Source of the DNA: Blastocatellia bacterium
GTDB lineage: Bacteria > Acidobacteriota > Blastocatellia > UBA7656
Direction: 5' to 3'
DNA length: 64,000 nucleotides
NCBI GenBank assembly: GCA_963765495.1
Contig: CAVXWP010000009.1
Coordinates: forward strand, 1 to 64,000
The notes beneath the pieces were generated by a model. The model did not search any database, was not told the DNA's origin, and worked only from the letters and a program-made list of their open reading frames with translations. Made by a program: the position numbers and the translations under genes. Shown piece after piece: positions 1,129 through 46,220 of the stretch (the stretch's first letter is position 1; each line of letters begins with the position of its first letter).

Positions 1129-1231
1129 GGGAAAGCCGTGTGAGATGGAAACTCTCACGCACGGTTTGGAGAGAGGAGTGGAGAAACACGTATGTTGCAA
1201 GATATAAAAGTGCGCTCTGCTCCTACTCTAT
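1..1231 (+). mobile_element. Group II intron 1 (3' part), inner intron of a twintron
   Basis: The RT ORF is followed by a domain V hairpin (GAAAGCCGTGTGAGATGGAAACTCTCACGCACGGTTT, ~1132-1168) and domain VI ending ...CCTACTCTAT at 1231. Confidence 0.9.
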
Positions 1232-5267: not shown

Positions 5268-5621
5268 GTCAGATCATCGCTGGAACCGATACGACTCTTC
5301 AAGCGATGATGCGAAAACATGTTCAGGTAAGTCATCATAAGGACAGCTACTTGCTCGCTTCTCTTTCCTCTTTACCTCATACTCGTTCCTCCCGAAACTA
5401 TCTTTCAGCATGGCTCAATGATAATGCTGCCTCTCAAGGATACTTTCGCAGTGCAATCACCATTTGAGCCAAGCGCCAGAGAAGACCTGCCAGGTATGAA
5501 TGAACTTCACGCATCAAGCAGCTTCCCTGACCATAGCAGGAAAACCTGTATCCAACAGAGAACCTGAGAAATGGAGGAATGTATTGAGCAAGGCTCAAGA
5601 AAATGAAGCACTCAAGGGGCC
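5268..5621 (+). other. ORF-less cassette, family I
   Basis: Bounded by attC sites, has no credible ORF, and shares motifs with the other family members. Confidence 0.8.
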
Positions 5622-19740: not shown

Positions 19741-19761
19741 GGTCGCAAGCTGAGAGCCGCG

Positions 19762-20800
19762 GGCTTTGTTGCGCAATTCGAGATGAAGATAGACTTCACC
19801 CAGACTTCGACCTCTTTTAGAATGCTACTGTGTCGGGCATCCCTAACTCGCTCATCCGATTCATCACCATGCACTTGATCCTTGCCTCCGTCATCTGTGT
19901 CTCCATCTTCCTACTGCTCATTCGCTCTCCTAATATCCCCTTCAGCCTGCCCATCTGTGTCTCTACCAAGCTCCTCTTGTGATACCCACTCTCTTTCTTC
20001 CACTCCTTCTCTCCTTTCTCTGCCTTCTCTCTTATCGCCAGGTTTCTTTCCCCCATATAATAATACTTGCTCTCGACTGCTCCCTTTCGCGGCGGGATCA
20101 ATGGCTTCGCTCCCTTCTTATAGATCGCCTTGTGACACTGGTTTGTATCATATGCTCCATCCCCATATATCCGACCTACTTCCCCTTCCGTTTCCTCTAT
20201 CAATCGAGGCATTACTCGCGGGTCAACAACTCCCTTGTCGGTCAACTCTACGGCTGTTATCTCCCACGTCTCTGTATCTACTGCTATGTGTAACTTCCTC
20301 CATTCTCGTCGTTTATCCTTCCCGTGTGTGCGAACTTTCCACTCCCCTTCTCCATAAATCTTGACTCCTGTTGAGTCTATTACAAGGTCCGCTATTGGCT
20401 TGCTTGTATCGCGCCTCAACCTTATCTCTAGCCCTGGGGCTCGCCTTGATACTCTACTGTAATCTGCAACGGGCAACTCTACTCCCATCAGCTTGAATAA
20501 TGAGCAGACGAATCCTTGAGTCTGGCGAAGCGGCAGATGGAAGACGGCCTTGATCGAGAGCATTGTTATGATAGCAGTGTCAGAATATCTCAATGGAGCG
20601 CCGGGGCGTGTTTGAGGAGAGCGGTGTAGCCACTGATCAAGGACATCTTGAGAGAGCCAGACTGTTAGACTACCACGATTACGAAGAGAGGAGTTATACT
20701 GTTTCCAGTTACGGGTGCGATAAGTGGGTTTGTTTTTCTTGGTCATAAAGAGATTATACAAACCCTCGCGCACCTGTTGCCATATTTACGCAACAAAGCC
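19762..20800 (-). mobile_element. IS5-family (IS903-like) element, copy 1
   Basis: Inverted repeats GGCTTTGTTGCG / CGCAACAAAGCC; ends 8 nt before an attC; no TSD seen. Confidence 0.9.
19817..20773 (-). CDS. IS5/IS903 transposase
   Basis: NWKQYN..L..RGSLTVW, IDSTGVK, WRKLH, DGAYD and YHKRSLVET motifs. Confidence 0.93.
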   Translation of the reverse strand: MREGLYNLFMTKKNKPTYRTRNWKQYNSSLRNRGSLTVWLSQDVLDQWLHRSPQTRPGAPLRYSDTAIITMLSIKAVFHLPLRQTQGFVCSLFKLMGVELPVADYSRVSRRAPGLEIRLRRDTSKPIADLVIDSTGVKIYGEGEWKVRTHGKDKRREWRKLHIAVDTETWEITAVELTDKGVVDPRVMPRLIEETEGEVGRIYGDGAYDTNQCHKAIYKKGAKPLIPPRKGAVESKYYYMGERNLAIREKAEKGEKEWKKESGYHKRSLVETQMGRLKGILGERMSSRKMETQMTEARIKCMVMNRMSELGMPDTVAF

Positions 20801-20808
20801 AAGGGCTT

Positions 20809-20894
20809 GCCTAACTGCTCATTCCAGCGGACGCGCTTGCCAACTTCTCGATTGCATCGGAGGCCACGGCGCGCCGCTGAACTCGTCGTTAGGC
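20809..20894 (+). repeat. attC site (IS110-A inserted at GTTAG^GC)
   Basis: Host-type attC; the R' box is regenerated because the IS starts with GC. Confidence 0.92.
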
Positions 20895-20959
20895 ATCCAT
20901 GAAGCAAGGCTTCTTCACGACGGATGAAAATGTCTGAGAGTTTATGTATCCTTCCTTCT

Positions 20960-21110
20960 GGTCATTGGCTGATAGGTCGTCGGGCCTTGGTGCCTTTAGC
21001 CCGGTCGTTAGTTTGACTTGGGGAGCCTTTTCAGGCATCACAACTTGTTGCTTCGAGCACGCATAGCAGTCTCTTTTGTTTTGAGGCTCCCCGCCAATGC
21101 CGAAAGGAGT
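20960..21110 (+). ncRNA. Putative bridge/seek RNA of IS110-A (approximate bounds)
   Basis: Guide-like segments GTCGTTAG (21004-11) and GAGCCT (21023-28) match the target; CATAGCAG (21062-69) and ATGCC (21097-101) match the element's own ends. Confidence 0.75.
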
Positions 21111-21116
21111 TCTATC

Positions 21117-22355
21117 ATGCAGATTCTTTACAACTCTTGCTGTGGTATTGATGTTCACGCTCGCACCGTTGTCGCCTGCCTCATCACTGACGGCAACAAA
21201 GAGGTTCGCACTTTCTCGACCATGACTGATGATTTGCTTGCCCTGCTCGACTGGCTCACTTCTCAAGGCTGCACTCACGTCGCTATTGAAAGTACTGGCG
21301 TTTACTGGAAGCCTGTTTTCAATATCCTCGAATCCTCCCTGGAGGTTATTTTGGTTAATGCCCGCCACGTCAAAGCTGTTCCTGGCAGAAAGACTGATGT
21401 TAAGGATTGTGAGTGGCTTGCTGACCTGCTTCGTCACGGTCTGCTTCGTCCCAGCTTTATCCCTCCTCCTCATATCCGTGAACTCAGGGATTTGACTCGC
21501 TACCGCCAGAGCCTTATCCGTGAGCAGACTGCTCTTGCCAATCGCATTCAGAAGTTGATTGAAAGCGCCAATATCAAGCTCGCTCAAGTCGCTAGTGATG
21601 CTTTGGGGGTTAGCGGCAGGCTGATGCTGAGAGCTTTGGCTGATGGTCAAACCGATGCTGACAAGATCAGCGACCTTGCTCGTCGGAGGATGAAGCGTAA
21701 GAAGGCTGACTTGAAGCGTGCTTTGCACGGTCGCCTCACTTCTGCCCAACGCTGGATTCTTAAAGAACTCCTCGATCAGTATGACTCGGTTGAATCCTCT
21801 ATTAAGAGGGTTGAAGAGAAGATCAGCCAGGAGGTCGAAACTTCCCCAGACCCTTTTGTTAAGCAAGCTGTTGAGCTTCTCGATTCTATTCCAGGAGTCG
21901 CAAAGACCTTAGCCCAGATCATTGTCTCTGAGATTGGAGTAGATATGAGCTGCTTCCCAACAGACAAGAATCTCTCAAGTTGGGCTTCGATCTGTCCCAG
22001 TAATAATCAATCGGCAGGAAAACGAAAGAGTGGAAGAACCCAAAAGGGCAATAGCTATCTAAAAGCAGCCCTTGTGCAGGCAGCCTGGGCAGCAACGCAT
22101 CAGAAGGATTGTTTCCTTGCAGCGAAGTACAAAAGGCTGGTCAAGAGAATGGGGAAGAAGAAGGCGCTGGTAGCAATAGCACATTCGATACTTGTGATTG
22201 TATATCACGTCTTAGAAGAGAGAGCCGGTTACAAAGAGTTGGGAGTAGATTATCTGGACAAAAGGAATGTAGAGAAGCAGCGGCGAAGATTAATCCGACA
22301 GCTTGAGGGGACGGGCTTGAGAGTAACTGTTGAAGAGGTCGAGCAAGCTGCCTGA
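21117..22355 (+). CDS. IS110 recombinase/transposase
   Basis: CCGIDVH, AIESTGVYW, KTDVKD and SIPGV...SAGK motifs. Confidence 0.95.
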   Translation: MQILYNSCCGIDVHARTVVACLITDGNKEVRTFSTMTDDLLALLDWLTSQGCTHVAIESTGVYWKPVFNILESSLEVILVNARHVKAVPGRKTDVKDCEWLADLLRHGLLRPSFIPPPHIRELRDLTRYRQSLIREQTALANRIQKLIESANIKLAQVASDALGVSGRLMLRALADGQTDADKISDLARRRMKRKKADLKRALHGRLTSAQRWILKELLDQYDSVESSIKRVEEKISQEVETSPDPFVKQAVELLDSIPGVAKTLAQIIVSEIGVDMSCFPTDKNLSSWASICPSNNQSAGKRKSGRTQKGNSYLKAALVQAAWAATHQKDCFLAAKYKRLVKRMGKKKALVAIAHSILVIVYHVLEERAGYKELGVDYLDKRNVEKQRRRLIRQLEGTGLRVTVEEVEQAA

Positions 22356-22457
22356 TCAACACCTACTCTTATTTTCATAGCAGGCTCTCGCTTTCGCAAT
22401 GATATAACTTGCCTTGATAAAAACTTCTTCCCCTATCATAATGCTGTTGAGGTCATT

Positions 22458-30082: not shown

Positions 30083-30167
30083 GCCTAACTGCTCATTCCA
30101 GCGGACGCGCATTCCAACGATTCATTATCCCTTTGCAACCAGCGCGCCGCTGAATTCGTCGTTAGGC
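30083..30167 (+). repeat. attC site (start of the IS110 stack)
   Basis: Host-type attC consensus. Confidence 0.92.
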
Positions 30168-30254
30168 ATCCATGAAGCAAGGCTTCTTCACATCGGATGA
30201 AAATAAGACACCCCGCTAATGAATTCAACAACTTAGCTCTTATTTTCATAGCAG
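30166..30254 (+). mobile_element. 89-bp ends-only IS110 mini-element with type A ends
   Basis: Left end GCATCCATGAAGCAAGGCTTCTTCAC and right end CTCTTATTTTCATAGCAG match IS110-A. Confidence 0.85.
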
Positions 30255-30565
30255 TTCATCATGAGCCTGCGGCTCACCTTCGAATGATGAAAATGTGTGA
30301 GAGCCATGATAGAATTTTGTATGTCGGTATGAAGGTCGAACGGTCCTTGGTGCTTCGAGCCTGTATAGCAGTTTGACCTGGGCATATTTCTGGTACCCCG
30401 AATTGTTGCCTTTGAGCACGTAGAGCAGACTCATGCTTATTAACCAATGCCCTACCGACAACCAGTTTGATGAAGCTGTGCAGAAGTAATATCGCACAGG
30501 CTCGGAGTTGTTTGTCTTCATCTACTCGTTATCAACATTTAGCACCCCTTTTATTTTCAGAGCAG
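30255..30565 (+). mobile_element. 311-bp non-autonomous IS110 element type B (bridge-RNA-like region, no recombinase)
   Basis: Four near-identical copies in the window; IS110-type ends; scaffold homologous to the non-coding ends of types A and C. Confidence 0.85.
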
Positions 30566-32055
30566 CCCGTCATGAAGCGAGGCTTCGCCACGAATGATGA
30601 AAATATGGGCGAGTTCGACTAAACTCTCTGTGGTCAGCGGCGTCAGATAAGGTCGTACAGCCTTGGTGCCTCAAGCCCGAATAGCAGCCTGACCTGAGAG
30701 CCTTTCTGGCACCACCAACTGTTGCTTCGAGCACGCATAGTAGACTCTTCATTAACAAGGCTCTCACGCCCTGGCCAGAAAGAGGTAGCTATGGAGATCA
30801 TCTATTCTTGTTGTTGCGGCCTCGATGTTCACGCCAAGACTGTTGTCGCTTGCCTCATTAAGCACGGCAAGAAAGAAGTCCGCACTTTCTCTACTATGAC
30901 CGATGACTTACTTCGTCTTTCGGATTGGCTCATAGCCGAAGGCTGCACGATTGCTGCAATAGAAAGCACGGGTGTTTACTGGAAGCCTGTCTTCAACATC
31001 CTTGAAGGCAACGTAGAAGTCTTGCTTGTCAATGCCCGCCACTACAAAGGTATTCCAGGCCGTAAGACCGATGTAAAAGATTGCGAATGGTTGGCCGATT
31101 TGCTGCGCCACGGTCTGTTAAAGCCCAGCTTCATTCCTCCGCTTGAGATAAGGGAGTTGAGAGAGTTGACACGCTATCGTCAGCAGTTGGTTAAAGAGAA
31201 TGCGACTATTGCCAATCGCATACAGAAGTTGATCGAGAGTGCCAACATCAAGCTCGGACAAGTCGCCACCGACGTCTTGGGAGTCAGTGGCAGGCAGATG
31301 TTGCGAGCACTGGCAGCAGGTGAGCGCGATGCCGAGAAGTTGAGTGAGTTTGCTCGCCGACGTATGCGAAGCAAGCGTCCCCAACTCAAACGTGCTCTTG
31401 AAGGCCGACTGACGAAATCTCAACGCTTTGTGCTGGGCGAGTTACTGACCCGATATGAAGAAGTAGAAGTTGCCGTCAAACGAGTCGAGCAACAGATTGA
31501 CGAGGAGGTGGGAGAGAGCGCCGACCCTTTTGTCTCTAAAGCCGTAGAACTGCTACAAACAATACCAGGGATAGGAGAGAGAGTGGCAGAAACAATAGTC
31601 TCAGAGATCGGAGTGGATATGGATCGCTTTCCGACAGACAGCCATATTTCGAGTTGGGCAGGGATGTGTCCGGGAAATAACGAATCGGCAGGCAAGCGGC
31701 GTAGCGGGAAGACGACGAAAGGGAATACCTATGTGCGGGAGGCGCTGGTACAAGCGGCGTGGGCAGCGAGTCATACAAAGCAGACATATCTGTCAGCGCA
31801 GTATAGAAGGCTAGCGAAGCGGCTGGGGAAGAAGAAGGCATTGGTGGCAGTCGGCCACACACTTTTGGTAATTGTTTATCATGTGATCGAACGACAGATG
31901 AGTTATAAAGAGTTGGGAGGAGATTACCTTGACAAACAGAATGTAGAGAGGCAAAGGAAGCGATTGATTGATCGGCTCGAAGCAACGGGATTGAAAGTCA
32001 CTGTTGAAGAGGTTCAACCTGCTGCGTGAGCCACATCCGGACATTTTCATAGTAG
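30566..32055 (+). mobile_element. IS110-family element type C
   Basis: Ends CCCGTCATGAAGCG...ATGAAAAT / ATTTTCATAGTAG; AG core at both junctions. Confidence 0.9.
30791..32029 (+). CDS. IS110 recombinase (paralog of the type A enzyme)
   Basis: CCGLDVH, AIESTGVYW, KTDVKD and TIPGI...SAGK motifs. Confidence 0.95.
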   Translation: MEIIYSCCCGLDVHAKTVVACLIKHGKKEVRTFSTMTDDLLRLSDWLIAEGCTIAAIESTGVYWKPVFNILEGNVEVLLVNARHYKGIPGRKTDVKDCEWLADLLRHGLLKPSFIPPLEIRELRELTRYRQQLVKENATIANRIQKLIESANIKLGQVATDVLGVSGRQMLRALAAGERDAEKLSEFARRRMRSKRPQLKRALEGRLTKSQRFVLGELLTRYEEVEVAVKRVEQQIDEEVGESADPFVSKAVELLQTIPGIGERVAETIVSEIGVDMDRFPTDSHISSWAGMCPGNNESAGKRRSGKTTKGNTYVREALVQAAWAASHTKQTYLSAQYRRLAKRLGKKKALVAVGHTLLVIVYHVIERQMSYKELGGDYLDKQNVERQRKRLIDRLEATGLKVTVEEVQPAA

Positions 32056-32167
32056 GCTTGCGCAGAGACCGCCAGAACTCTGGTTGGGTTTATCCATTGA
32101 AAAATCAATCGCGGTTGATTCGACGATTAACAATTTGTTATAAGTGAATAGTTGATCGGAGACTTTT

Positions 32168-34887: not shown

Positions 34888-35691
34888 GGCCCCGATGCAG
34901 GATGAAAACGGGCAGATGGTGGAGCGAACTAGAGGAACTCCGCAGGGGGAGTAGTCAGCCCGCTGCTTGCGAATCTGTTCCTACACTACGCGTTTGATGT
35001 CTGGGTAAGTCGCAACCTGCCGACTGTGCCGTTCTGCCGCTACGCCGATGATGGACTGCTGCACTGCAAGACTCGGAGGCAGGCGGAGTATGTCATAAAA
35101 GTCGTGGGGAGAAGGTTTCAAGAGTGTGGGTTAGAACTGCACCCTGAGAAATCGAAGATCGTATACTGCAAAGACATCAACCGCAGAGGCGACTATGACA
35201 ATATCTCGTTTGACTTTCTCGGCTATACATTTCGGCCACGCTCATCAAAGGACAAATATGGGCGACGGTACGTCAACTTCTCGCCAGCCGTGAGCAATTC
35301 GGCAAAGAAAGCGATGCGGCAGGAAATAAGAGGCTGGCACCTACAGCTGAAGAACGACAAGAGGCTGGAGGATCTGTCGAGGATGTTTGATCCGATATTG
35401 AGAGGGTGGGCGAGCTATTACGGCAAGTTCTACAAAAGCGGCATGAGGGGGATTTGGAATCACTTTGATATGTATCTCACACGATGGGTAATGCGCAAAT
35501 ACAAGAGGCTGGCCGGGCATCGGCGGAGGGCAAGCAAGGAGTTAGGCCGAATCGCGCGGGATAAGCCGAATCTGTTTGTACATTGGCGGCAAAGGGAAAT
35601 GCGAGCGGTTGGATGATGGAGCCGAATGAGGGGAGACCTTCACGTTCGGTTCTGAGAGGGGCCAGGGGAGAGACTCCCCTGGTCTACTCAC
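34888..35691 (+). mobile_element. Group II intron 3, 3' half (RT and X domains, no HNH), 5'-truncated
   Basis: GTPQG (frameshift in a G-run), SPLLANLFLHY, RYADD and FDFLGY motifs; ORF ends at 35616; domain V GAGCCGAATGAGGGGAGACCTTCACGTTCGGTTC; domain VI ends ...CTACTCAC. Confidence 0.88.
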
Positions 35692-36170
35692 CCCTACATT
35701 CGGTTGCTAGCCAACTGGATGTATCTGGTGGCGATTATCGATTGGCATTCGCGTTATGTCGTGAGTTGGGAACTCGATGACAGCCTGGAAGTGGATTTCG
35801 TCCTCTTGGCCGTCGAGCGGGCCTTGCGCCAAGCGAAGCCGGAAATCTTTAACTCCGATCAAGGGAGCCAGTTCACGAGCCAGGCGTACATCTCGCTGGT
35901 CGAAGGAGCCGGGGTGCGAATCAGTATGGACTCGAAAGGGCGAGCCTTTGACAACATCTTCACCGAGAGATTATGGCGAACCGTCAAATATGAAGACGTC
36001 TATATAAAAGGTTACACGTCGCCGCGCGAAACGCGGGTTGGAATAGGCAGCTATCTGGAGTTCTATAATGACAGGCGCGTGCATCAAGCCTTGGCTTATC
36101 GAACGCCAGCCGAAATCCACTTCGGGCTTTGAATTGAACAAGAACCATGTTTATAGCCGACTCAAATGAA
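35692..36170 (+). pseudogene. IS3 orfB 3' exon, right end deleted
   Basis: (T)YIRLLANWMYLVAIIDW...NSDQGSQF...DNIFTERLWRTVKYE; same element as 2304-2533. Confidence 0.85.
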
Positions 36171-36664: not shown

Positions 36665-36672
36665 TGCTTGCT

Positions 36673-37711
36673 GGCTTTGTTGCGTAAATATGGCAACAGG
36701 TGCGCGAGGGTTTGTATAATCTCTTTATGACCAAGAAAAACAAACCCACTTATCGCACCCGTAACTGGAAACAGTATAACTCCTCTCTTCGTAATCGTGG
36801 TAGTCTAACAGTCTGGCTCTCTCAAGATGTCCTTGATCAGTGGCTACACCGCTCTCCTCAAACACGCCCCGGCGCTCCATTGAGATATTCTGACACTGCT
36901 ATCATAACAATGCTCTCGATCAAGGCCGTCTTCCATCTGCCGCTTCGCCAGACTCAAGGATTCGTCTGCTCATTATTCAAGCTGATGGGAGTAGAGTTGC
37001 CCGTTGCAGATTACAGTAGAGTATCAAGGCGAGCCCCAGGGCTAGAGATAAGGTTGAGGCGCGATACAAGCAAGCCAATAGCGGACCTTGTAATAGACTC
37101 AACAGGAGTTAAGATTTACGGAGAAGGGGAGTGGAAAGTTCGCACACACGGGAAGGATAAACGACGAGAATGGAGGAAGTTACACATAGCAGTAGATACA
37201 GAGACGTGGGAGATAACAGCCGTAGAGTTGACCGACAAGGGAGTTGTTGACCCGCGAGTAATGCCTCGATTGATAGAGGAAACGGAAGGGGAAGTAGGTC
37301 GGATATATGGGGATGGAGCATATGATACAAACCAGTGTCACAAGGCGATCTATAAGAAGGGAGCGAAGCCATTGATCCCGCCGCGAAAGGGAGCAGTCGA
37401 GAGCAAGTATTATTATATGGGGGAAAGAAACCTGGCGATAAGAGAGAAGGCAGAGAAAGGAGAGAAGGAGTGGAAGAAAGAGAGTGGGTATCACAAGAGG
37501 AGCTTGGTAGAGACACAGATGGGCAGGCTGAAGGGGATATTAGGAGAGCGAATGAGCAGTAGGAAGATGGAGACACAAATAACGGAGGCAAGGATCAAGT
37601 GCATGGTGATGAATCGGATGAGCGAGTTAGGGATGCCCGACACAGTAGCATTCTAAAAGAGGTCGAAGTCTGGGTGAAGTCTATCTTCATCTCGAATTGC
37701 GCAACAAAGCC
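36673..37711 (+). mobile_element. IS5-family (IS903-like) element, copy 2
   Basis: Near-identical to 19762-20800; CTTGCT repeated at the flanks; 8 nt from an attC R'' box. Confidence 0.9.
36700..37656 (+). CDS. IS5/IS903 transposase
   Basis: Differs from copy 1 by one residue in the ORF track. Confidence 0.93.
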   Translation: MREGLYNLFMTKKNKPTYRTRNWKQYNSSLRNRGSLTVWLSQDVLDQWLHRSPQTRPGAPLRYSDTAIITMLSIKAVFHLPLRQTQGFVCSLFKLMGVELPVADYSRVSRRAPGLEIRLRRDTSKPIADLVIDSTGVKIYGEGEWKVRTHGKDKRREWRKLHIAVDTETWEITAVELTDKGVVDPRVMPRLIEETEGEVGRIYGDGAYDTNQCHKAIYKKGAKPLIPPRKGAVESKYYYMGERNLAIREKAEKGEKEWKKESGYHKRSLVETQMGRLKGILGERMSSRKMETQITEARIKCMVMNRMSELGMPDTVAF

Positions 37712-37736
37712 CTTGCTCCGGTGTATTGTCGAATTG

Positions 37737-38961: not shown

Positions 38962-39272
38962 CTGCTCTGAAAATAAAAGGGGTGCTAAATGTTGATAACG
39001 AGTAGATGAAGACAAACAACTCCGAGCCTGTGCGATATTACTTCTGCACAGCTTCATCAAACTGGTTGTCGGTAGGGCATTGGTTAATAAGCATGAGTCT
39101 GCTCTACGTGCTCAAAGGCAACAATTCGGGGTACCAGAAATATGCCCAGGTCAAACTGCTATACAGGCTCGAAGCACCAAGGACCGTTCGACCTTCATAC
39201 CGACATACAAAATTCTATCATGGCTCTCACACATTTTCATCATTCGAAGGTGAGCCGCAGGCTCATGATGAA
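38962..39272 (-). mobile_element. IS110 non-autonomous type B, copy 2
   Basis: Same sequence as 30255-30565; abuts the right end of IS110-A copy 2. Confidence 0.87.
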
Positions 39273-41859
39273 CTGCTATGAAAATAAGAGTAGGTGTTGA
39301 TCAGGCAGCTTGCTCGACCTCTTCAACAGTTACTCTCAAGCCCGTCCCCTCAAGCTGTCGGATTAATCTTCGCCGCTGCTTCTCTACATTCCTTTTGTCC
39401 AGATAATCTACTCCCAACTCTTTGTAACCGGCTCTCTCTTCTAAGACGTGATATACAATCACAAGTATCGAATGTGCTATTGCTACCAGCGCCTTCTTCT
39501 TCCCCATTCTCTTGACCAGCCTTTTGTACTTCGCTGCAAGGAAACAATCCTTCTGATGCTTGCTGCCCAGGCTGCCTGCACAAGGGCTGCTTTTAGATAG
39601 CTATTGCCCTTTTGGGTTCTTCCACTCTTTCGTTTTCCTGCCGATTGATTATTACTGGGACAGATCGAAGCCCAACTTGAGAGATTCTTGTCTGTTGGGA
39701 AGCAGCTCATATCTACTCCAATCTCAGAGACAATGATCTGGGCTAAGGTCTTTGCGACTCCTGGAATAGAATCGAGAAGCTCAACAGCTTGCTTAACAAA
39801 AGGGTCTGGGGAAGTTTCGACCTCCTGGCTGATCTTCTCTTCAACCCTCTTAATAGAGGATTCAACCGAGTCATACTGATCGAGGAGTTCTTTAAGAATC
39901 CAGCGTTGGGCAGAAGTGAGGCGACCGTGCAAAGCACGCTTCAAGTCAGCCTTCTTACGCTTCATCCTCCGACGAGCAAGGTCGCTGATCTTGTCAGCAT
40001 CGGTTTGACCATCAGCCAAAGCTCTCAGCATCAGCCTGCCGCTAACCCCCAAAGCATCACTAGCGACTTGAGCGAGCTTGATATTGGCGCTTTCAATCAA
40101 CTTCTGAATGCGATTGGCAAGAGCAGTCTGCTCACGGATAAGGCTCTGGCGGTAGCGAGTCAAATCCCTGAGTTCACGGATATGAGGAGGAGGGATAAAG
40201 CTGGGACGAAGCAGACCGTGACGAAGCAGGTCAGCAAGCCACTCACAATCCTTAACATCAGTCTTTCTGCCAGGAACAGCTTTGACGTGGCGGGCATTAA
40301 CCAAAATAACCTCCAGGGAGGATTCGAGGATATTGAAAACAGGCTTCCAGTAAACGCCAGTACTTTCAATAGCGACGTGAGTGCAGCCTTGAGAAGTGAG
40401 CCAGTCGAGCAATAATAGAATTAGATAGTTTTTTGTTTGTTGTGTTGGTGTTTTTTTTTTGTTTTTTTGTGTGTTGGTGTGTTTGGTTTTTTTTGAAGTT
40501 GATATTTAGTTGTTGTTGTTTTATGGATAGGAGTAGAATATAGATGATTTTATGTTTAGATGGATGTTTATGATATATGTTGTGTGTAAAAAAATATTGG
40601 TTGATTTTTTATGTTGAGTGAGTAGGATTGATTTAAGTAAGGATTGTGAGATGTGTTGGTAGTAGGTTGAGTTATTTGATATTAGTGAGTAAGTTTTTAT
40701 TATAAGTTGTTTTAGTTATAGTGAGGAGATGTTATAAGTATGGATTGATGATATTATATAAAGTTATTATTTTACGTTTTGTGGTGTATTAGTGTTTGTT
40801 TAGTGGGAGTATTATGAAGTTTGTTGATATTTTGTGATGTTATATGTGTGAAGGGAATAAAAGTGATATATTTGGTTTTAATTTGAGTTGTTGTGATTTA
40901 GTGTATGTTTATATTGTATTTGTTGTGAGGTTTGTTTATTATGATTGTAAATTAAGTTTGGGGTATTGATATACTTATATCTGATTTGTGGTGTGTGGAT
41001 GTATTGGTAGTATTGTTGGATTGTTATTAGTGTTATATATTGAGTTGGGAATTGGATTAGAGTTTGGAGTATTTTTTCGTGATGGTAGTATTAGAATAGG
41101 TGTTTGTTAAAGTTTGTTTAGGAATTTGGAACTCTGATTAGGGGAGTTACTTCACTAGTTTGTAATATATATATCGACTGAAAATGGTTGGGTTGTAAAT
41201 CAGTATGGATGGTAAAGGTTGTGTTTTGGATAACATCTTTACGTAGTGTTTATGGAGAAGTATCAAGTATGAAGAGGTCTATCTGTATTCTTATGTTTCA
41301 CGAAGAGAAGCTCGACAAAACATTACTAGGTATATGTGATTCTATAATGAAGAGCGTCTACATCAGTCACTCGATTACTGGACACCGGTTGAAGTCGTAT
41401 TTCAGTTGTGAGAATGAGAAACATCAGCGAAACGATTCTATAATGAAAGGAGAAAAGTCCACTTTAGGCATAGGTAATTTTTTGTCTTGATTTTGTGGAC
41501 CACCTTAAGGGCAAGCAAATCATCAGTCATGGTCGAGAAAGTGCGAACCTCTTTGTTGCCGTCAGTGATGAGGCAGGCGACAACGGTGCGAGCGTGAACA
41601 TCAATACCACAGCAAGAGTTGTAAAGAATCTGCATGATAGAACTCCTTTCGGCATTGGCGGGGAGCCTCAAAACAAAAGAGACTGCTATGCGTGCTCGAA
41701 GCAACAAGTTGTGATGCCTGAAAAGGCTCCCCAAGTCAAACTAACGACCGGGCTAAAGGCACCAAGGCCCGACGACCTATCAGCCAATGACCAGAAGGAA
41801 GGATACATAAACTCTCAGACATTTTCATCCGTCGTGAAGAAGCCTTGCTTCATGGATGC
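39273..41859 (-). mobile_element. IS110 type A, copy 2, interrupted by an IS3 insertion
   Basis: Matches copy 1 apart from the 40412-41507 insert and a frameshift near 39557; inserted at an attC GTTAG^GC. Confidence 0.9.
40412..41507 (+). mobile_element. IS3-family element with a corrupted, C-depleted sequence
   Basis: Right end TTGTCTTGATTTTGTGGACCACCTTA; relics of the QVWGIDITY, NSDQG, SMDGKG..DNIF and KYEEVY coding motifs. Confidence 0.7.
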
Positions 41860-41942
41860 CTAACGACGAATTCAGCGGCGCGCTGGCGGCAAAGGGAGAA
41901 TGAGGCGGTGGAATGCGGGTCCGGTTGATGGACCAGTTAGGC
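41858..41942 (-). repeat. attC site (chimeric arms)
   Basis: Reverse complement reads GCCTAACTGGTCCATCAACCGGACCCGC...GCGCGCCGCTGAATTCGTCGTTAGGC. Confidence 0.88.
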
Positions 41943-43427: not shown

Positions 43428-44798
43428 GGCTTAGGCTGACACATCCAAACGCAGCAGGTATAGATATAGGTAGTGATTCACATTTCGTGGCCGTGCCGCC
43501 AGATAGAGCAGAAAATCTGTGAGAGAGTTCTCCTCATTCACCTGTGACCTCAACCGACTTGCAGATTGGTTGAGCGAGTGTGGGGTAGATACAGTAGCGA
43601 TGGAGTCAACAGGAGTCTACTGGATCGCGCTGTATGAGTTGCTGGAAAGTCGAGGATTTGAAGTGAAGTTAGTAGACGCACGACGAGTAAAGCATGTACC
43701 AGGACGAAAGACCGATGTATTGGACTGCCAGTGGTTGCAGGAATTGCATACATACGGACTATTAGAAGGAGCATTTCGACCACCCGACCAGATAATAGAG
43801 TTGCGAAGCTATGTGAGGCAGAGAATGATGTTGGTCAGATATGCAGCAAGCCACATACAGCACATGCAGAAGGCGCTGACACAGATGAACCTGAAACTGC
43901 ATAACGTGATAAGCGACATAACAGGGGCGACAGGGATGAGGATCATCAAAGCGATATTGGCAGGAGAGCGAGACGTGCAGGTGCTAGCGGCGAACCGAGA
44001 TGCGAGGTGTAAGAATTCACGGGAGGTAATAGCCAAGTCGTTGGAAGGCAATTATAGAGAAGAACTTTTGTTTGAGTTAAGACAAGGCGTAGAGTTGTAT
44101 GAGAGCTATCAGGAGAAGATAGCAGAATGCGACCGGCAGATAGAGCGGTAGTTGGGGAGGATGGCAAAGATGGGAGAAGTGGAAAACAAAGCCTTGCCGA
44201 AGGCCAGAAGAGCAAGCAAGGGAGAAGGAAATCAGCCGAGATTTGAGTTGAGGAAATATCTGTATGAGATGATGGGTGTAGACCTGACACAGATAGATGG
44301 GATAAGCGCATACACGGCCCTGGTAGTAGTCAGTGAAATAGGGACAGACATGAGCGCGTGGGAGAGTAGTAAGCAATTCGGGTCATGGCTATGTTTGTCA
44401 CCAGGAAGCAAGAAAAGCGGAGGCAAACAGCTATCAACAAAAAGCAAGCCGGGAGCGAACCGAGTAGCAAATCAGTTGAGGATGTCAGCCCAGGCATTGA
44501 GTAATTCACAGAGCGCATTAGGAGGATATTACCGAAGGATGAAGGCGCGATTAGGAGGACCAAAAGCGATAACAGCGACAGCCTACAAGCTGGCGAGGTT
44601 AATCTATAGCATGATGAAGAATGGAACAGAGTATGTAGATAGAGGGCAGGAAGCATATGAGGAGCAATATCGGGAAAGAGTGTTGAAAAATCTAAAGAGA
44701 AGAGCAAGACAGATGGGCTATGAACTGGTGAAGAGCGATCTACAGAAGGGTTTTCTCGTCCTGTAGAATCAATAGCTTACGGGGAAGTTTCTTAAGAA
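43428..44798 (+). pseudogene. IS110 type E, 3' part (frameshift near 43517, stop at 44149)
   Basis: HPNAAGIDIG, AMESTGVYW, KTDVLD and SGGK motifs; the N-terminus is found at 47972-48042. Confidence 0.85.
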
Positions 44799-45512: not shown

Positions 45513-45823
45513 TTGCTCGGAAAATAAAAGGGGTGCTAAATGTTGATAACGAGTAGATGAAGACAAACAACTCCGAGCCTGTGCGATATTACTTCTGCAC
45601 AGCTTCATCAAACTGGTTGTCGGTAGGGCATTGGTTAATAAGCATGAGTCTGCTCTACGTGCTCAAAGGCAACAATTCGGGGTACCAGAAATATGCCCAG
45701 GTCAAACTGCTATACAGGCTCGAAGCACCAAGGACCGTTCGACCTTCATACCGACATACAAAATTCTATCATGGCTCTCACACATTTTCATCATTCGAAG
45801 GTGAGCCGCAGGCTCATGATGAA
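45513..45823 (-). mobile_element. IS110 non-autonomous type B, copy 3
   Basis: 311-bp unit, in tandem with copy 4. Confidence 0.87.
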
Positions 45824-46133
45824 CTGCTCTGAAAATAAAAGGGGTGCTAAATGTTGATAACGAGTAGATGAAGACAAACAACTCCGAGCCTGTGCGATAT
45901 TACTTCTGCACAGCTTCATCAAACTGGTTGTCGGTAGGGCATTGGTTAATAAGCATGTGTCTGCTCTACGTGCTCAAAGGCAACAATTCGGGGTACCAGA
46001 AATATGCCCAGGTCAAACTGCTATACAGGCTCGAAGCACCAAGGACCGTTCGACCTTCATACCGACATCAAAATTCTATCATGGCTCTCACACATTTTCA
46101 TCATTCGAAGGTGAGCCGCAGGCTCATGATGAA
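45824..46133 (-). mobile_element. IS110 non-autonomous type B, copy 4
   Basis: 310-bp unit, head-to-tail with copy 3. Confidence 0.87.
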
Positions 46134-46220
46134 CTGCTCTGAAAATAATCGCCTAAGTTATTGATTCTACAAGAATCGCTTATTTTCGTCGTTCGTGGCG
46201 AAGCGACCCCTTCATGACGG
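46134..46220 (-). mobile_element. 87-bp ends-only IS110 mini-element
   Basis: Reverse complement CCGTCATGAAGG...ACGAAAATAAG...TTATTTTCAGAGCAG, directly after an attC GTTAG. Confidence 0.8.

What the first reader, a model, noticed from the sequence alone, without database searches (positions are those of the whole stretch)
30083..32060. Tiered IS110 bridge-RNA system: elements programmed to hit another IS110's end, building stacks on attC
Seen: after the attC GTTAG, three IS110-type units sit head-to-tail, each ending in AG (89-bp mini, 311-bp type B, 1490-bp type C), and the cassette then resumes (GCTTG). All share ATGAAAAT/ATTTTCA subterminal repeats, and A, B and C share a non-coding scaffold (CCTTGGTGC..AGCC.G-[x]-TGAC..G-[y]-TTC.GG.A.C ... 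GAGCACG-[z]). Type A has x=GTCGTTAG and y=GAGCCT, i.e. the attC R' target GTCGTT-AG-GCTC. Type C has x=ATAGCAG (30681-87) and y=GAGCCT (30698-703), which spells ATAGC-AG-GCTC, the right junction created when type A inserts in attC. Segment z matches each element's own right end (A CATAGCAG, C CATAGTAG, B AGAGCAG). Known: IS110 recombinases use bridge/seek RNAs with target and donor loops, and IS1111-attC elements target attC. Inference: C and B are secondary colonisers whose target exists only after A has inserted. Similar stacks occur at 38962-41859 and 45513-46220. I know of no description of such a hierarchy. The right donor guide of C was not resolved.
Basis: partly seen in the sequence, partly recalled or inferred. 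Interest (0 to 1): 0.92.

Follow-up and report, generated by a model that had tools for sequence, protein, structure and literature searches.

The report
Insertion sequences that target sibling ends
Three RNA-guided IS110-type mobile elements are stacked head to tail in one integron recombination site, and the guide sequences of the later arrivals match the right end of an earlier element rather than the host site, a habit also seen in unrelated environmental bacteria.

Summary
The stack is real: attC | 89-bp mini-A | 311-bp B (no recombinase gene) | 1490-bp C | cassette, with two similar stacks in the window.

Across 54 to 65 relatives the non-coding scaffold behaves as a bridge-RNA-like guide module.
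- Segment x equals the left flank plus the AG core, so it is the left target guide (LTG).
- Segment z equals the element's own right end, so it is the left donor guide (LDG).
It is one strand of a covarying helix.
- The right target guide (RTG) lies just 5' of the TGGTGC hairpin, a mirror image of IS621.

With corrected guides, C and B still read ATAGC-AG, the right end of A.

Independent support comes from other genomes. An LTG=CATAGCAG element sits behind full-length, truncated or miniature elements ending ATTTTCATAGCAG in 6 of 9 metagenome contigs. Comparable two-tier pairs occur in Planctomycetota, Entotheonellaceae and Acidobacteriota assemblies.

The dependence is not strict. One B lies directly in a naive attC. 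One C lies at an unrelated site. None of 14 perfect C target 10-mers in this genome is occupied.

Tandem IS110 modules and half-match recombination are in print; guide-encoded targeting of another element's end was not found there. Verdict: partly supported, a new variant of a known kind.

The parts
30083..30165 (+). attC site (GCCTAAC ... GTCGTTAG) whose R' end is the insertion point
   Evidence: member of the 92-nt attC repeat family D2
30166..30254 (+). mini-A: 89-bp deletion derivative with A's left 39 nt and A's right end; no guide module
   Evidence: 95% identity to the A left end; right end CTCTTATTTTCATAGCAG
30255..30565 (+). B: 311-bp non-autonomous element with a full guide module and no recombinase gene
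   Evidence: 6 copies at 99-100% identity in the genome
30342..30347 (+). B right target guide GGTCCT (reads AG|GACC)
   Evidence: position fixed
30364..30373 (+). B left target guide TATAGCAG plus 2 nt (TT) equal to B's own first 2 nt
30421..30428 (+). B left donor guide TAGAGCAG (own right end is CAGAGCAG)
30566..32055 (+). C: 1490-bp autonomous IS110-type element
30658..30663 (+). C right target guide CAGCCT (reads AG|GCTG; the three copies have GCTTGC, GCTCGC, GCTCGC on their right)
30680..30689 (+). C left target guide AATAGCAG plus CC (equal to C's first 2 nt)
30736..30743 (+). C left donor guide CATAGTAG (equal to C's own right end)
30791..32029 (+). C recombinase gene (DEDD_Tnp_IS110 + Transposase_20)
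20893..22383 (+). A: tier-1 element in a naive attC. RTG 20982-20987 GGGCCT, LTG 21004-21011 GTCGTTAG, LDG 21062-21069 CATAGCAG, recombinase gene 21117-22355
38962..41859 (-). stack 2: A (interrupted by foreign DNA at 40412-41507) followed by B (39272-38962)
45514..46220 (-). stack 3: 87-bp mini-D (46220-46134), B (46133-45824), B with a mutated right end (45823-45514)

Best explanation
These are IS110-type, RNA-guided elements with a guide module upstream of the recombinase gene.

Anatomy of the target-binding part. It is an internal loop closed by a GGTC/GACC stem with an apical TGGTGC...GCCCG hairpin.
- The 5' side holds a 4-8 nt right target guide ending in CT. CT pairs with the AG core.
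- The 3' side holds an 8-nt left target guide ending in AG, plus 2 nt that equal the element's own first 2 nt.
- An 8-nt left donor guide sits after GAGCACG.

Tier 1. Element A is addressed to the attC R' end (GTCGTT-AG|GC).

Tier 2. B and C carry ATAGC-AG in the left-target-guide position, which is the right end of A. They therefore recombine into the junction between a resident element's right end and whatever lies to its right, and units pile up head to tail on that side. B has a guide module and no recombinase gene, so it must borrow the enzyme of A or C.

Shown: the anatomy, the guide assignments from comparative data, and the placement of tier-2 elements behind tier-1 elements in several genomes.

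Inferred: that the RNA is made, that left-target-guide pairing drives the insertion, and that contact between the recombinase and the resident ATTTTCA end may add specificity.
For: Guide assignments
- LTG: in 53 elements the 7 positions before the junction agree with x at 0.70-1.00 against 0.25-0.57 expected. The left junction was located using x, so the check that does not depend on x is its fixed place 4-6 nt before the conserved CATG hairpin.
- LDG: 59 elements, 0.90-1.00 against 0.27-0.55 expected.
- The 2 nt after x equal the first 2 nt of the element: 0.94 and 0.83 against 0.33 and 0.28 (54 elements).
- RTG: 58 elements, mean 1.71 of 4 right-flank positions complementary, against 0.98 +/- 0.11 when flanks are permuted (maximum 1.38 in 2000 permutations).
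- Loop structure: 54 sequences, 91.3% of cells paired, 8 of 10 pairs changed on both sides, 0 of 500 shuffles as high.

This genome
- 5 of 6 B copies follow an element's right end: A twice, mini-A, mini-D, B.
- C at 30566 follows B.

Other genomes
- 9 of 64 relatives chosen only by recombinase similarity (7 of 44 element types) have TTTTC at the right-end offset in their left flank. Background is 52 of 9600 windows.
- Upstream of these sit miniature or full elements. L030, L084, L089 and L040 follow miniatures. L086 follows a different full-length element ending CAGAACAG, and its own LTG is AAGAACAG.
- L023 (right end CAGAGCAG) is followed by a different full-length element whose LTG is CAGAGCAG, an 8 of 8 match.
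- The metagenome scan for LTG=ATAGCAG gave 61 loci, 12 with the scaffold. Of 9 'E-type' copies (LTG CATAGCAG, own right end CATAAGAG), 3 follow different full-length elements ending ATTTTCATAGCAG, 1 a truncated one, 2 miniatures (one of them in an attC), 1 a solo right-end-like box, and 2 have no element upstream.
- Of eight tier-2 types compared by hand, the LTG matches the neighbour's right end better than the element's own in six. Examples: E 8 against 6 of 8; the element downstream of L023 8 against 5; the L086 type 7 against 4. The exceptions are C behind B and the C-like L115, both 6 against 6 (hand counts).
Against: - Nothing here shows the RNA, a circular form or any recombination.
- C is poorly explained in its own genome. 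Its predicted 10-mer ATAGCAGGCT occurs 14 times, 2 of them at A junctions, and none is occupied.
- C's two sites with an intact left end match its LTG at only 6 of 8 (behind B) and 4 of 8 (C1, an unrelated site).
- One B lies directly in a naive attC, at a site that fits A's guides and not B's.
- The B copies behind A may share one origin as an A+B composite, so they are not 5 independent events.
- E-type right flanks (atgctc, atgtct, gctctg, gaacga, atgtct, ctggct) do not match its RTG.
- L032 and L047 follow right-end-like boxes with no recognisable element upstream.
- The right donor guide could not be found: 4.91 against 4.79 nt best match.
- No close C copies exist outside this genome among 53 family genomes.
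Confidence: 0.65

Rival explanations
1. Local expansion by half-match recombination and co-mobilisation. The stacks arise because the recombinase complex recognises a resident element's right end as a donor half-site (donor loop, not target loop), and composites such as A+B then move as units. The likeness of x to right ends would be incidental, because all right ends of this family look alike (C-N5-AG).
For: - Published tandem IS110 modules (n=437) and tandem non-coding units (n=468) retain matches to the left donor end only (sections 8 and 9 of bioRxiv 10.64898/2026.08.14.744561, read).
- Half-match insertion is reported for IS621 (abstract of 10.64898/2026.08.31.748434).
- ISPpu9 and MITEPpu9 form separate and joint circles (PMC12288879, discussion read).
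- C's own donor guide matches A's right end 7 of 8, as well as its x does.
- C leaves 14 perfect target 10-mers unused.
- A+B occurs twice with identical junctions.
Against: - In the E type, the element downstream of L023 and the L086 type, x matches the neighbour's right end 8, 8 and 7 of 8, while the donor guide or own right end matches 6, 5 and 4 of 8.
- x occupies the position that matches native left flanks in dozens of relatives.
- E-type copies follow three clearly different primaries, so one composite history cannot explain them.
Confidence: 0.2
2. Everything is aimed at attC by A's ribonucleoprotein acting in trans. Newcomers enter the left junction GTTAG|, so the stack grows leftwards (C first, then B, then mini-A).
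For: - A's insertion regenerates GTTAG|GC at its left junction.
- B at C2:561583 sits in attC CTCGTTAG|..|GCCCTC. This fits A's LTG (7 of 8) and A's RTG (GCCC, 4 of 4), and A's 2-nt extension TT equals B's first 2 nt.
Against: - B and C keep intact target loops with ATAGCAG, not GTCGTTAG.
- In relatives the stacks are not in attC. The left flank of the first element matches only that element's guide (L137 CTGAATAG, L118 TATCTGAG, L086 CCACAGAG).
Confidence: 0.08
3. Assembly artefact, or homologous recombination between repeated elements, produced the stacks.
For: - The elements are repeats.
- Short-read contigs of the likely source sample break at them.
- One A copy holds a strange, almost C-free insert.
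Against: - The junctions are exact to the base at the AG core in three stacks of different composition.
- The same architecture recurs in unrelated assemblies.
Confidence: 0.04

Closest known systems
IS621 / IS110-group bridge RNA elements (Durrant et al. 2024, PMC11208160, passages read; Hiraizumi et al. 2024, PMC11208158, passages read)
   Same: - A DEDD recombinase with Tnp domains, and the non-coding guide module upstream of the gene.
- An 8-9 nt guide with the sense of the left flank plus core, and a 4-7 nt guide complementary to core plus right flank.
- A donor guide equal to the element's right end plus core.
- A 2-nt core present at both junctions.
   Different: - The core is AG, not CT.
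- The order is mirrored: RTG on the 5' side and LTG on the 3' side of the loop.
- The extra 2 nt follow the LTG and equal the element's first 2 nt. In IS621 the handshake bases flank the RTG and RDG.
- 8-bp subterminal repeats and a left-end hairpin are present.
- No right donor guide was found.
- No Rfam family was hit at gathering score.
IS1111-attC group: ISKpn4, ISPst6, ISPa21 (Siddiquee et al. 2024, PMC11187229, passages read; Tetu & Holmes 2008 and Post & Hall 2009 seen only as titles in its reference list)
   Same: Element A inserts at one end of attC sites, in one orientation.
   Different: - The non-coding region is upstream of the gene, not downstream.
- The subterminal repeats are 8 bp, lying 31 and 5 nt from the ends. 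The IS1111 type has 11-13 bp repeats with 7- and 3-bp extensions.
- The best annotated plasmid relatives are 52% identical or less and are labelled only 'IS110 family transposase'.
ISPpu9 with MITEPpu9/ssr9 (PMC12288879, abstract and discussion read)
   Same: - A small non-autonomous unit with IS-like ends sits directly downstream of the IS.
- The core is AG.
- Solo and tandem copies occur, and the unit is presumed to use the IS enzyme.
   Different: - B carries a complete guide module of its own, with its own target guide.
- That paper describes no guide-level addressing of the MITE to the IS end.
Expanded IS110 loci and half-match recombination (bioRxiv 10.64898/2026.08.14.744561, sections 8 and 9 read; 10.64898/2026.08.31.748434, abstract read)
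   Same: Repeated insertion into occupied loci, tandem full and non-coding modules, and boundaries that keep the left-donor sequence.
   Different: - Those authors explain growth by the resident element's own donor half-matches.
- Here a different element's target guide is matched to the resident's right end.
- Their supplementary figures could not be seen and might touch on this.
[quoted passage not shown]
   Same: A DEDD-recombinase IS that uses the end of another mobile element as its site.
   Different: There the host element is an unrelated Tn3-family transposon. Here it is a sibling IS110-type element, and the result is head-to-tail stacks.

Membership tests
IS110 family (bridge-recombinase insertion sequences) | DEDD/RuvC-like N-terminal domain plus Tnp (Transposase_20) domain | tested here: met
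   PF01548 at E 4.1e-29 and PF02371 at E 4.9e-25 for C. A is 69% identical to C.
IS110 family (bridge-recombinase insertion sequences) | Longer non-coding region upstream of the recombinase gene | tested here: met
   C has 225 nt on the left and 26 nt on the right.
IS110 family (bridge-recombinase insertion sequences) | Guide segments that covary with target and donor flanks | tested here: met
   LTG, LDG and RTG are supported. The right donor guide was not found.
IS110 family (bridge-recombinase insertion sequences) | Circular intermediate and an RNA bound by the recombinase | not testable with these tools
   No RNA run holds the stretch, and the only data served were contigs.
IS621-type bridge RNA architecture | LTG on the 5' side and RTG on the 3' side of the target loop | tested here: not met
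   The order is reversed around a covarying apical hairpin.
IS621-type bridge RNA architecture | Match to a curated RNA family | tested here: not met
   the window's only Rfam gathering-score matches are three group II intron hits.
IS1111-attC group | Inserts at the attC R' end | tested here: met
   A: 4 of 5 copies lie in attC sites after GTTAG.
IS1111-attC group | Non-coding region (seekRNA) downstream of the gene | tested here: not met
   It is upstream in A and C. The criterion comes from PMC11187229.
IS1111-attC group | Subterminal inverted repeats of 11-13 bp with 7- and 3-bp terminal extensions | tested here: not met
   ATGAAAAT/ATTTTCAT are 8 bp, lying 31 nt and 5 nt from the ends.
MITE-like hitchhiker of an IS110 element (MITEPpu9 type) | IS-like ends, no recombinase gene, several identical copies, found next to the IS and alone | tested here: met
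   B has 6 copies at 99-100% identity: 2 behind A, 3 behind miniatures or B, 1 alone in an attC.

The most novel reading that the evidence does not exclude
A widespread guild of second-tier IS110-type elements has reprogrammed its target guide to the right end of first-tier siblings. This makes them parasites of parasites that build ordered stacks wherever a first-tier element lands. The guild includes guide-RNA-only miniatures such as B, which carry an address but no enzyme. The habit arose in several lineages across phyla. It may account for many of the 'expanded IS110 loci' now attributed to half-match recombination.
Probability: 0.45. Interest if true: 0.85.

Novelty: new variant of a known kind. 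Interest (0 to 1): 0.74.

Why it matters
- It would be a natural case of bridge-RNA reprogramming in which the address is another mobile element's end. Such a site harms no host gene and is renewed by every insertion.
- It gives a sequence-level rule for how IS110 arrays grow, and that rule can be tested with simple guide swaps.
- It describes a non-autonomous element that brings its own guide RNA.
- It documents a bridge-RNA layout with the two target guides in the opposite order to IS621, which matters for anyone mining or engineering these recombinases.
- For integron biology, attC sites can collect stacks of several elements. Because A starts with GC, the GTTAGGC box is restored at the left junction (read; the consequence for integrase action is inferred).

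Tried and rejected
- Single-sequence minimum-energy folds of the A, B and C left ends disagreed with one another and were dropped in favour of comparative analysis.
- My first automatic extraction of x used loose patterns and picked wrong segments in many loci. It was replaced by alignment columns.
- A pattern search for the guide modules of the upstream primaries found nothing. I then read the regions by eye.
- Right donor guide: the best complementary match to core plus the first 10 nt of the element was 4.91 nt, against 4.79 +/- 0.10 when permuted (54 elements). It remains unresolved.
- The long-range pairing TGGTGCC/GGCACCA that I first assumed was set aside, because the local hairpin TGGTGC/GCCCG has covariation support. 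A pseudoknot was not tested.
- Family genomes: 4 of 53 genomes (G000 included) matched C's left end at E<=1e-10, and none outside G000 above 77% identity. No extra C copies were gained.
- The metagenome pattern scan returned 61 loci, of which 49 were chance matches without the scaffold and were dropped.
- Sequencing runs: no RNA holder is listed, and all 4 runs are kept as contigs only. The contigs break at the repeats. The one contig that runs from B into C has 27 nt on the C side, below the 31 needed to count as bridging. A 291-nt contig of a second study is about 95% like B. None of this is used as evidence.
Supplementary files of papers were not opened.
- The statement that guide-encoded targeting of a sibling's end is not in print rests on searches, and on the passages read. 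It excludes all supplements, and subscription journals are not covered.
Full report
WHAT IS THERE

The window is a large integron cassette array with many ~86-nt attC sites (GCCTAAC...GTTAGGC) in both orientations. At 30083-32060 one attC ends in GTCGTTAG and is followed, base to base, by three units:
- an 89-bp unit (mini-A, 30166-30254);
- a 311-bp unit (B, 30255-30565);
- a 1490-bp unit (C, 30566-32055).

The cassette then resumes with GCTTG. Each unit ends in AG. Each has GATGAAAAT about 31 nt from its left end and ATTTTCA just before its last 5-6 nt.

C encodes a 412-aa protein with DEDD_Tnp_IS110 and Transposase_20 domains. A full-length type A (1491 bp, 20893-22383) lies in another attC. 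Two more stacks lie on the minus strand:
- attC | A (interrupted) | B at 41859-38962;
- attC | mini-D | B | B at 46220-45514.

COPIES IN THE GENOME

The window is contig C9 of a 7.3-Mb, 17-contig genome. BLAST and flank extraction give the following.

A, 5 copies:
- three in naive attC sites (CGTCGTTAG|A|GCTCTC, GGTTGTTAG|A|GCGCGT, TCGTCGTTAG|A|GCTCCC);
- one in an attC and followed by B;
- one at a non-attC site CTCTCGTTAG|A|B|GTCCTG.

B, 6 copies at 99-100% identity:
- behind A twice;
- behind mini-A, mini-D and B once each;
- one directly in a naive attC, CTCCTCGTTAG|B|GCCCTCGC.

C, 3 identical copies:
- behind B (this stack);
- at an unrelated site GCACCACAG|C|GCTCGCG on contig C1;
- one lacking its first 13 nt.

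The recombinase inventory is 3 C, 4 intact A, 1 disrupted A and one decayed distant relative at 43501-44742.

WHAT THE SCAFFOLD IS

Rfam has no match at gathering score. I therefore collected relatives of the C recombinase. Of 583 candidate stretches, 500 encode a relative, and the best 80 were kept (L016-L095, 48-75% identity). They come from assemblies labelled Acidobacteriota, Planctomycetota, Chloroflexota, Alicyclobacillus and others. Nearly all have the same upstream scaffold; 67 distinct versions were aligned.

Comparing alignment columns with the flanks (65 elements) gave four results.
- z equals the last 7 nt of the element at 0.90-1.00 (59 elements, expected 0.27-0.55).
- x equals the last 7 nt of the left flank at 0.70-1.00 (53 elements). 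The junction was located with x, so this is partly circular. The check that does not depend on x is that the match always falls 4-6 nt before the conserved CATG hairpin.
- The last base of x and the last base of z are the same in all 53 elements scored (observed 1.00), and in A, B and C both end in AG. The shared 2-nt core is therefore AG here, and AA or AC in some relatives.
- The 2 nt after x equal the first 2 nt of the element itself (0.94 and 0.83, against 0.33 and 0.28). This was not used to place anything. Type A is an exception (TT against its own GC).

In 63 of 63 elements tested, y forms a 5-11 bp helix (62 of 63 at 7-11 bp) with a segment that in most of them starts 10-20 nt after z. 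The mean is 8.49 bp, against 6.16 +/- 0.14 when partners are permuted.
- The pairs covary, for example GAGAGCC/GGCTCTC, GGACATCG/CGATGTCC and GGCGAC/GTCGCC.
- RNAalifold on 13 close relatives finds the same helix, with 5 pairs changed on both sides.
- Relatives L016-L019 carry y=GAGAGCCT (L019: GAGAACCT), but their right flanks are GATCC, CTGCT, GGTGG and CTGTA.

WHERE THE RIGHT TARGET GUIDE IS

The columns most complementary to the right flank lie just 5' of TGGTGC. Reading the 8 nt there as core-CT plus right flank gives long exact matches:
- L073 GTAATCCT against AG|GATTAC;
- L021 TTGCCT against AG|GCAA;
- L071, L074 and L061.

Over 58 elements, 1.71 of 4 right-flank positions are complementary, against 0.98 +/- 0.11 permuted (maximum 1.38 in 2000 permutations). 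A one-base register slip in some rows makes this an underestimate.

STRUCTURE OF THE TARGET LOOP

On 54 aligned sequences, two helices are 91.3% paired: a basal GGTC/GACC stem and an apical hairpin TGG-GC/GC-CCG. Eight of 10 pairs change on both sides, and 0 of 500 shuffles reach any of the five measures. Sliding the partner by one column drops pairing to 47-49%.

The target loop is therefore a true internal loop, with the RTG on its 5' side and the LTG plus 2 nt on its 3' side. In IS621 the order is the reverse, and the extra handshake bases sit beside the RTG and RDG (passages of PMC11208160 and PMC11208158). I could not find a right donor guide.

CORRECTED READING OF A, B AND C

| Element | RTG | Reads | LTG | LDG |
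|---|---|---|---|---|
| A | GGGCCT | AG\|GCCC | GTCGTTAG | CATAGCAG |
| C | CAGCCT | AG\|GCTG | AATAGCAG+CC | CATAGTAG |
| B | GGTCCT | AG\|GACC | TATAGCAG+TT | TAGAGCAG |

- A is addressed to the attC R' end.
- C's three right flanks begin GCT. Its address is ATAGC-AG-GCT, which is A's right end joined to the usual attC right half.
- B's address is again A's right end.

TEST OUTSIDE THIS GENOME

(a) Relatives picked only by protein similarity. Of 64 with a confident left junction, 9 (7 of 44 element types) have TTTTC at the offset where these elements carry it in their own right ends (65 of 71 own right ends). Background is 52 of 9600 random windows.

(b) Reading upstream:
- L030 follows a ~95-bp miniature ending TTATTTTCCGAGCAG (LTG CAGAGCAG).
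- L084 and L089 follow miniatures ending ...GAACAG.
- L086 follows a different full-length element ending TTTTCAGAACAG. Its own LTG is AAGAACAG. The upstream element's LTG is ACACAGAG+TT, and that element sits at CCACAGAG|TT.
- L040 follows a ~115-bp miniature.
- L032 and L047 follow solo right-end-like boxes with no element upstream.
- L087 is at a native CCAGAACAG site.

(c) L023 (right end CAGAGCAG, own LTG GCTGTCAG at native CCCTGTCAG) is followed by a different full-length element with LTG CAGAGCAG+TG, whose first bases are TG.

(d) A metagenome scan for the scaffold with LTG ATAGCAG gave 61 loci, of which 12 are real family members. Nine are one type (E: LTG CATAGCAG+CG, right end CATAAGAG, ~1500 bp). 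Their upstream context:

| E-type locus | What lies upstream |
|---|---|
| L118, L119, L137 | three clearly different full-length elements, all ending ATTTTCATAGCAG |
| L154 | a truncated 3' fragment of such an element |
| L122 | attC GGCGTTAG \| 88-bp mini-A-like unit, the same arrangement as in the window |
| L155 | a decayed miniature |
| L138 | a solo box |
| L103, L147 | sites with CATAGCAG but no element upstream |

The primaries of L137 and L118 have LTGs TTGAATAG and TATCTGAG that match their own left flanks. Tier 1 therefore need not target attC. A C-like element (L115) follows a different full-length element ending ATTTTCATAGTAG.

WHAT ARGUES AGAINST

- No RNA, circle or reaction has been seen.
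- In its own genome C ignores 14 perfect 10-mers, 2 of them at A junctions, and sits at sites matching its LTG at 6 and 4 of 8.
- ATAGCAG occurs 545 times in the genome, yet B is almost only at element ends. Pairing with 7-8 nt therefore cannot be the whole rule. Either the recombinase also reads the resident ATTTTCA box (inference), or several B copies share one history as an A+B composite.
- B in a naive attC fits A's guides (7 of 8, and GCCC 4 of 4) and A's odd TT extension. This suggests either precise loss of an A that once preceded it or guidance by A's RNA. I cannot tell which.
- E-type right flanks do not fit its RTG.

COMPARISON WITH WHAT IS KNOWN

- Bridge and seek RNAs of IS110/IS1111 elements, and attC targeting by ISKpn4 and ISPst6, are established.
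- A small IS-ended unit downstream of ISPpu9 with an AG core, its own circles and tandem copies is described.
- Tandem full and non-coding IS110 modules, and half-match recombination, are described in 2026 preprints.
- In four searches and the passages read, I found no description of an element whose target guide is matched to a sibling's right end, nor of a recombinase-less unit carrying a full guide module. Supplements were closed and may hold such cases.

By organisation these elements are IS110-type, not members of the IS1111-attC group: the non-coding region is upstream and the subterminal repeats are short and displaced.

VERDICT

The tiered-targeting idea is backed by independent contigs, but the dependence on A is a preference rather than a rule, and attC is incidental.
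- This is a new variant of a known kind, of clear interest to people working on bridge recombinases and on integron-associated mobile DNA.

Noticed in passing
window 40412-41507 (inside the minus-strand A copy): A 1096-bp insert splits the A recombinase gene. Its plus strand is almost free of C: 54 C in all, and about 4 in the first 700 nt. It aligns weakly with 35207-36149; at 208 reference C positions it has T at 122 and C at 29, with many other changes as well. It could be a strand-biased hypermutated copy of another mobile element or an assembly or consensus artefact.
   Followed up: partly
window 1131-1231, 2227-2303, 35617-35692 (+): Three Rfam group II intron (RF00029) matches lie inside the cassette array. 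They could be attC-associated group IIC introns, a class named in the title of PMC3001079 (seen only in the listing). Their positions relative to attC sites were not examined.
   Followed up: no
window 21012-21013 (type A): In 94% and 83% of relatives the 2 nt after the left target guide equal the element's own first 2 nt. Type A has TT, but the element starts with GC. TT is how B starts. The one B lying alone in an attC (contig C2, 561583) sits at a site fitting A's guides.
   Followed up: partly
window 19761-20801 and 36672-37712; 20869-22383 and 39273-41883: Long, perfectly complementary inverted repeats (1041 nt, and the A copies with the adjacent attC) show that cassettes and A elements are duplicated in opposite orientation. 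This suggests an inversion or an inverted duplication within the array.
   Followed up: no
window 43501-44742 (+): A decayed IS110-type recombinase gene, 32-39% identical to C with two in-frame TAG stops, lies between the stacks.
   Followed up: no
own genome contig C2, about 5318-5340: The third C copy lacks its first 13 nt. It is preceded by GCGTCGTTGAGCC, which looks like a mutated attC R' end about 20 nt upstream.
   Followed up: no
loci L062, L065, L084, L085: In other genomes, full-length relatives are followed directly by a second left end of the same type (head-to-tail tandems), although their left target guide does not equal their own right end.
   Followed up: no
own genome, all contigs: The 10-mer GTCGTTAGGC (attC R' end plus GC) occurs 74 times against about 14 expected by chance. 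The genome therefore holds a very large number of attC sites that type A could use.
   Followed up: no
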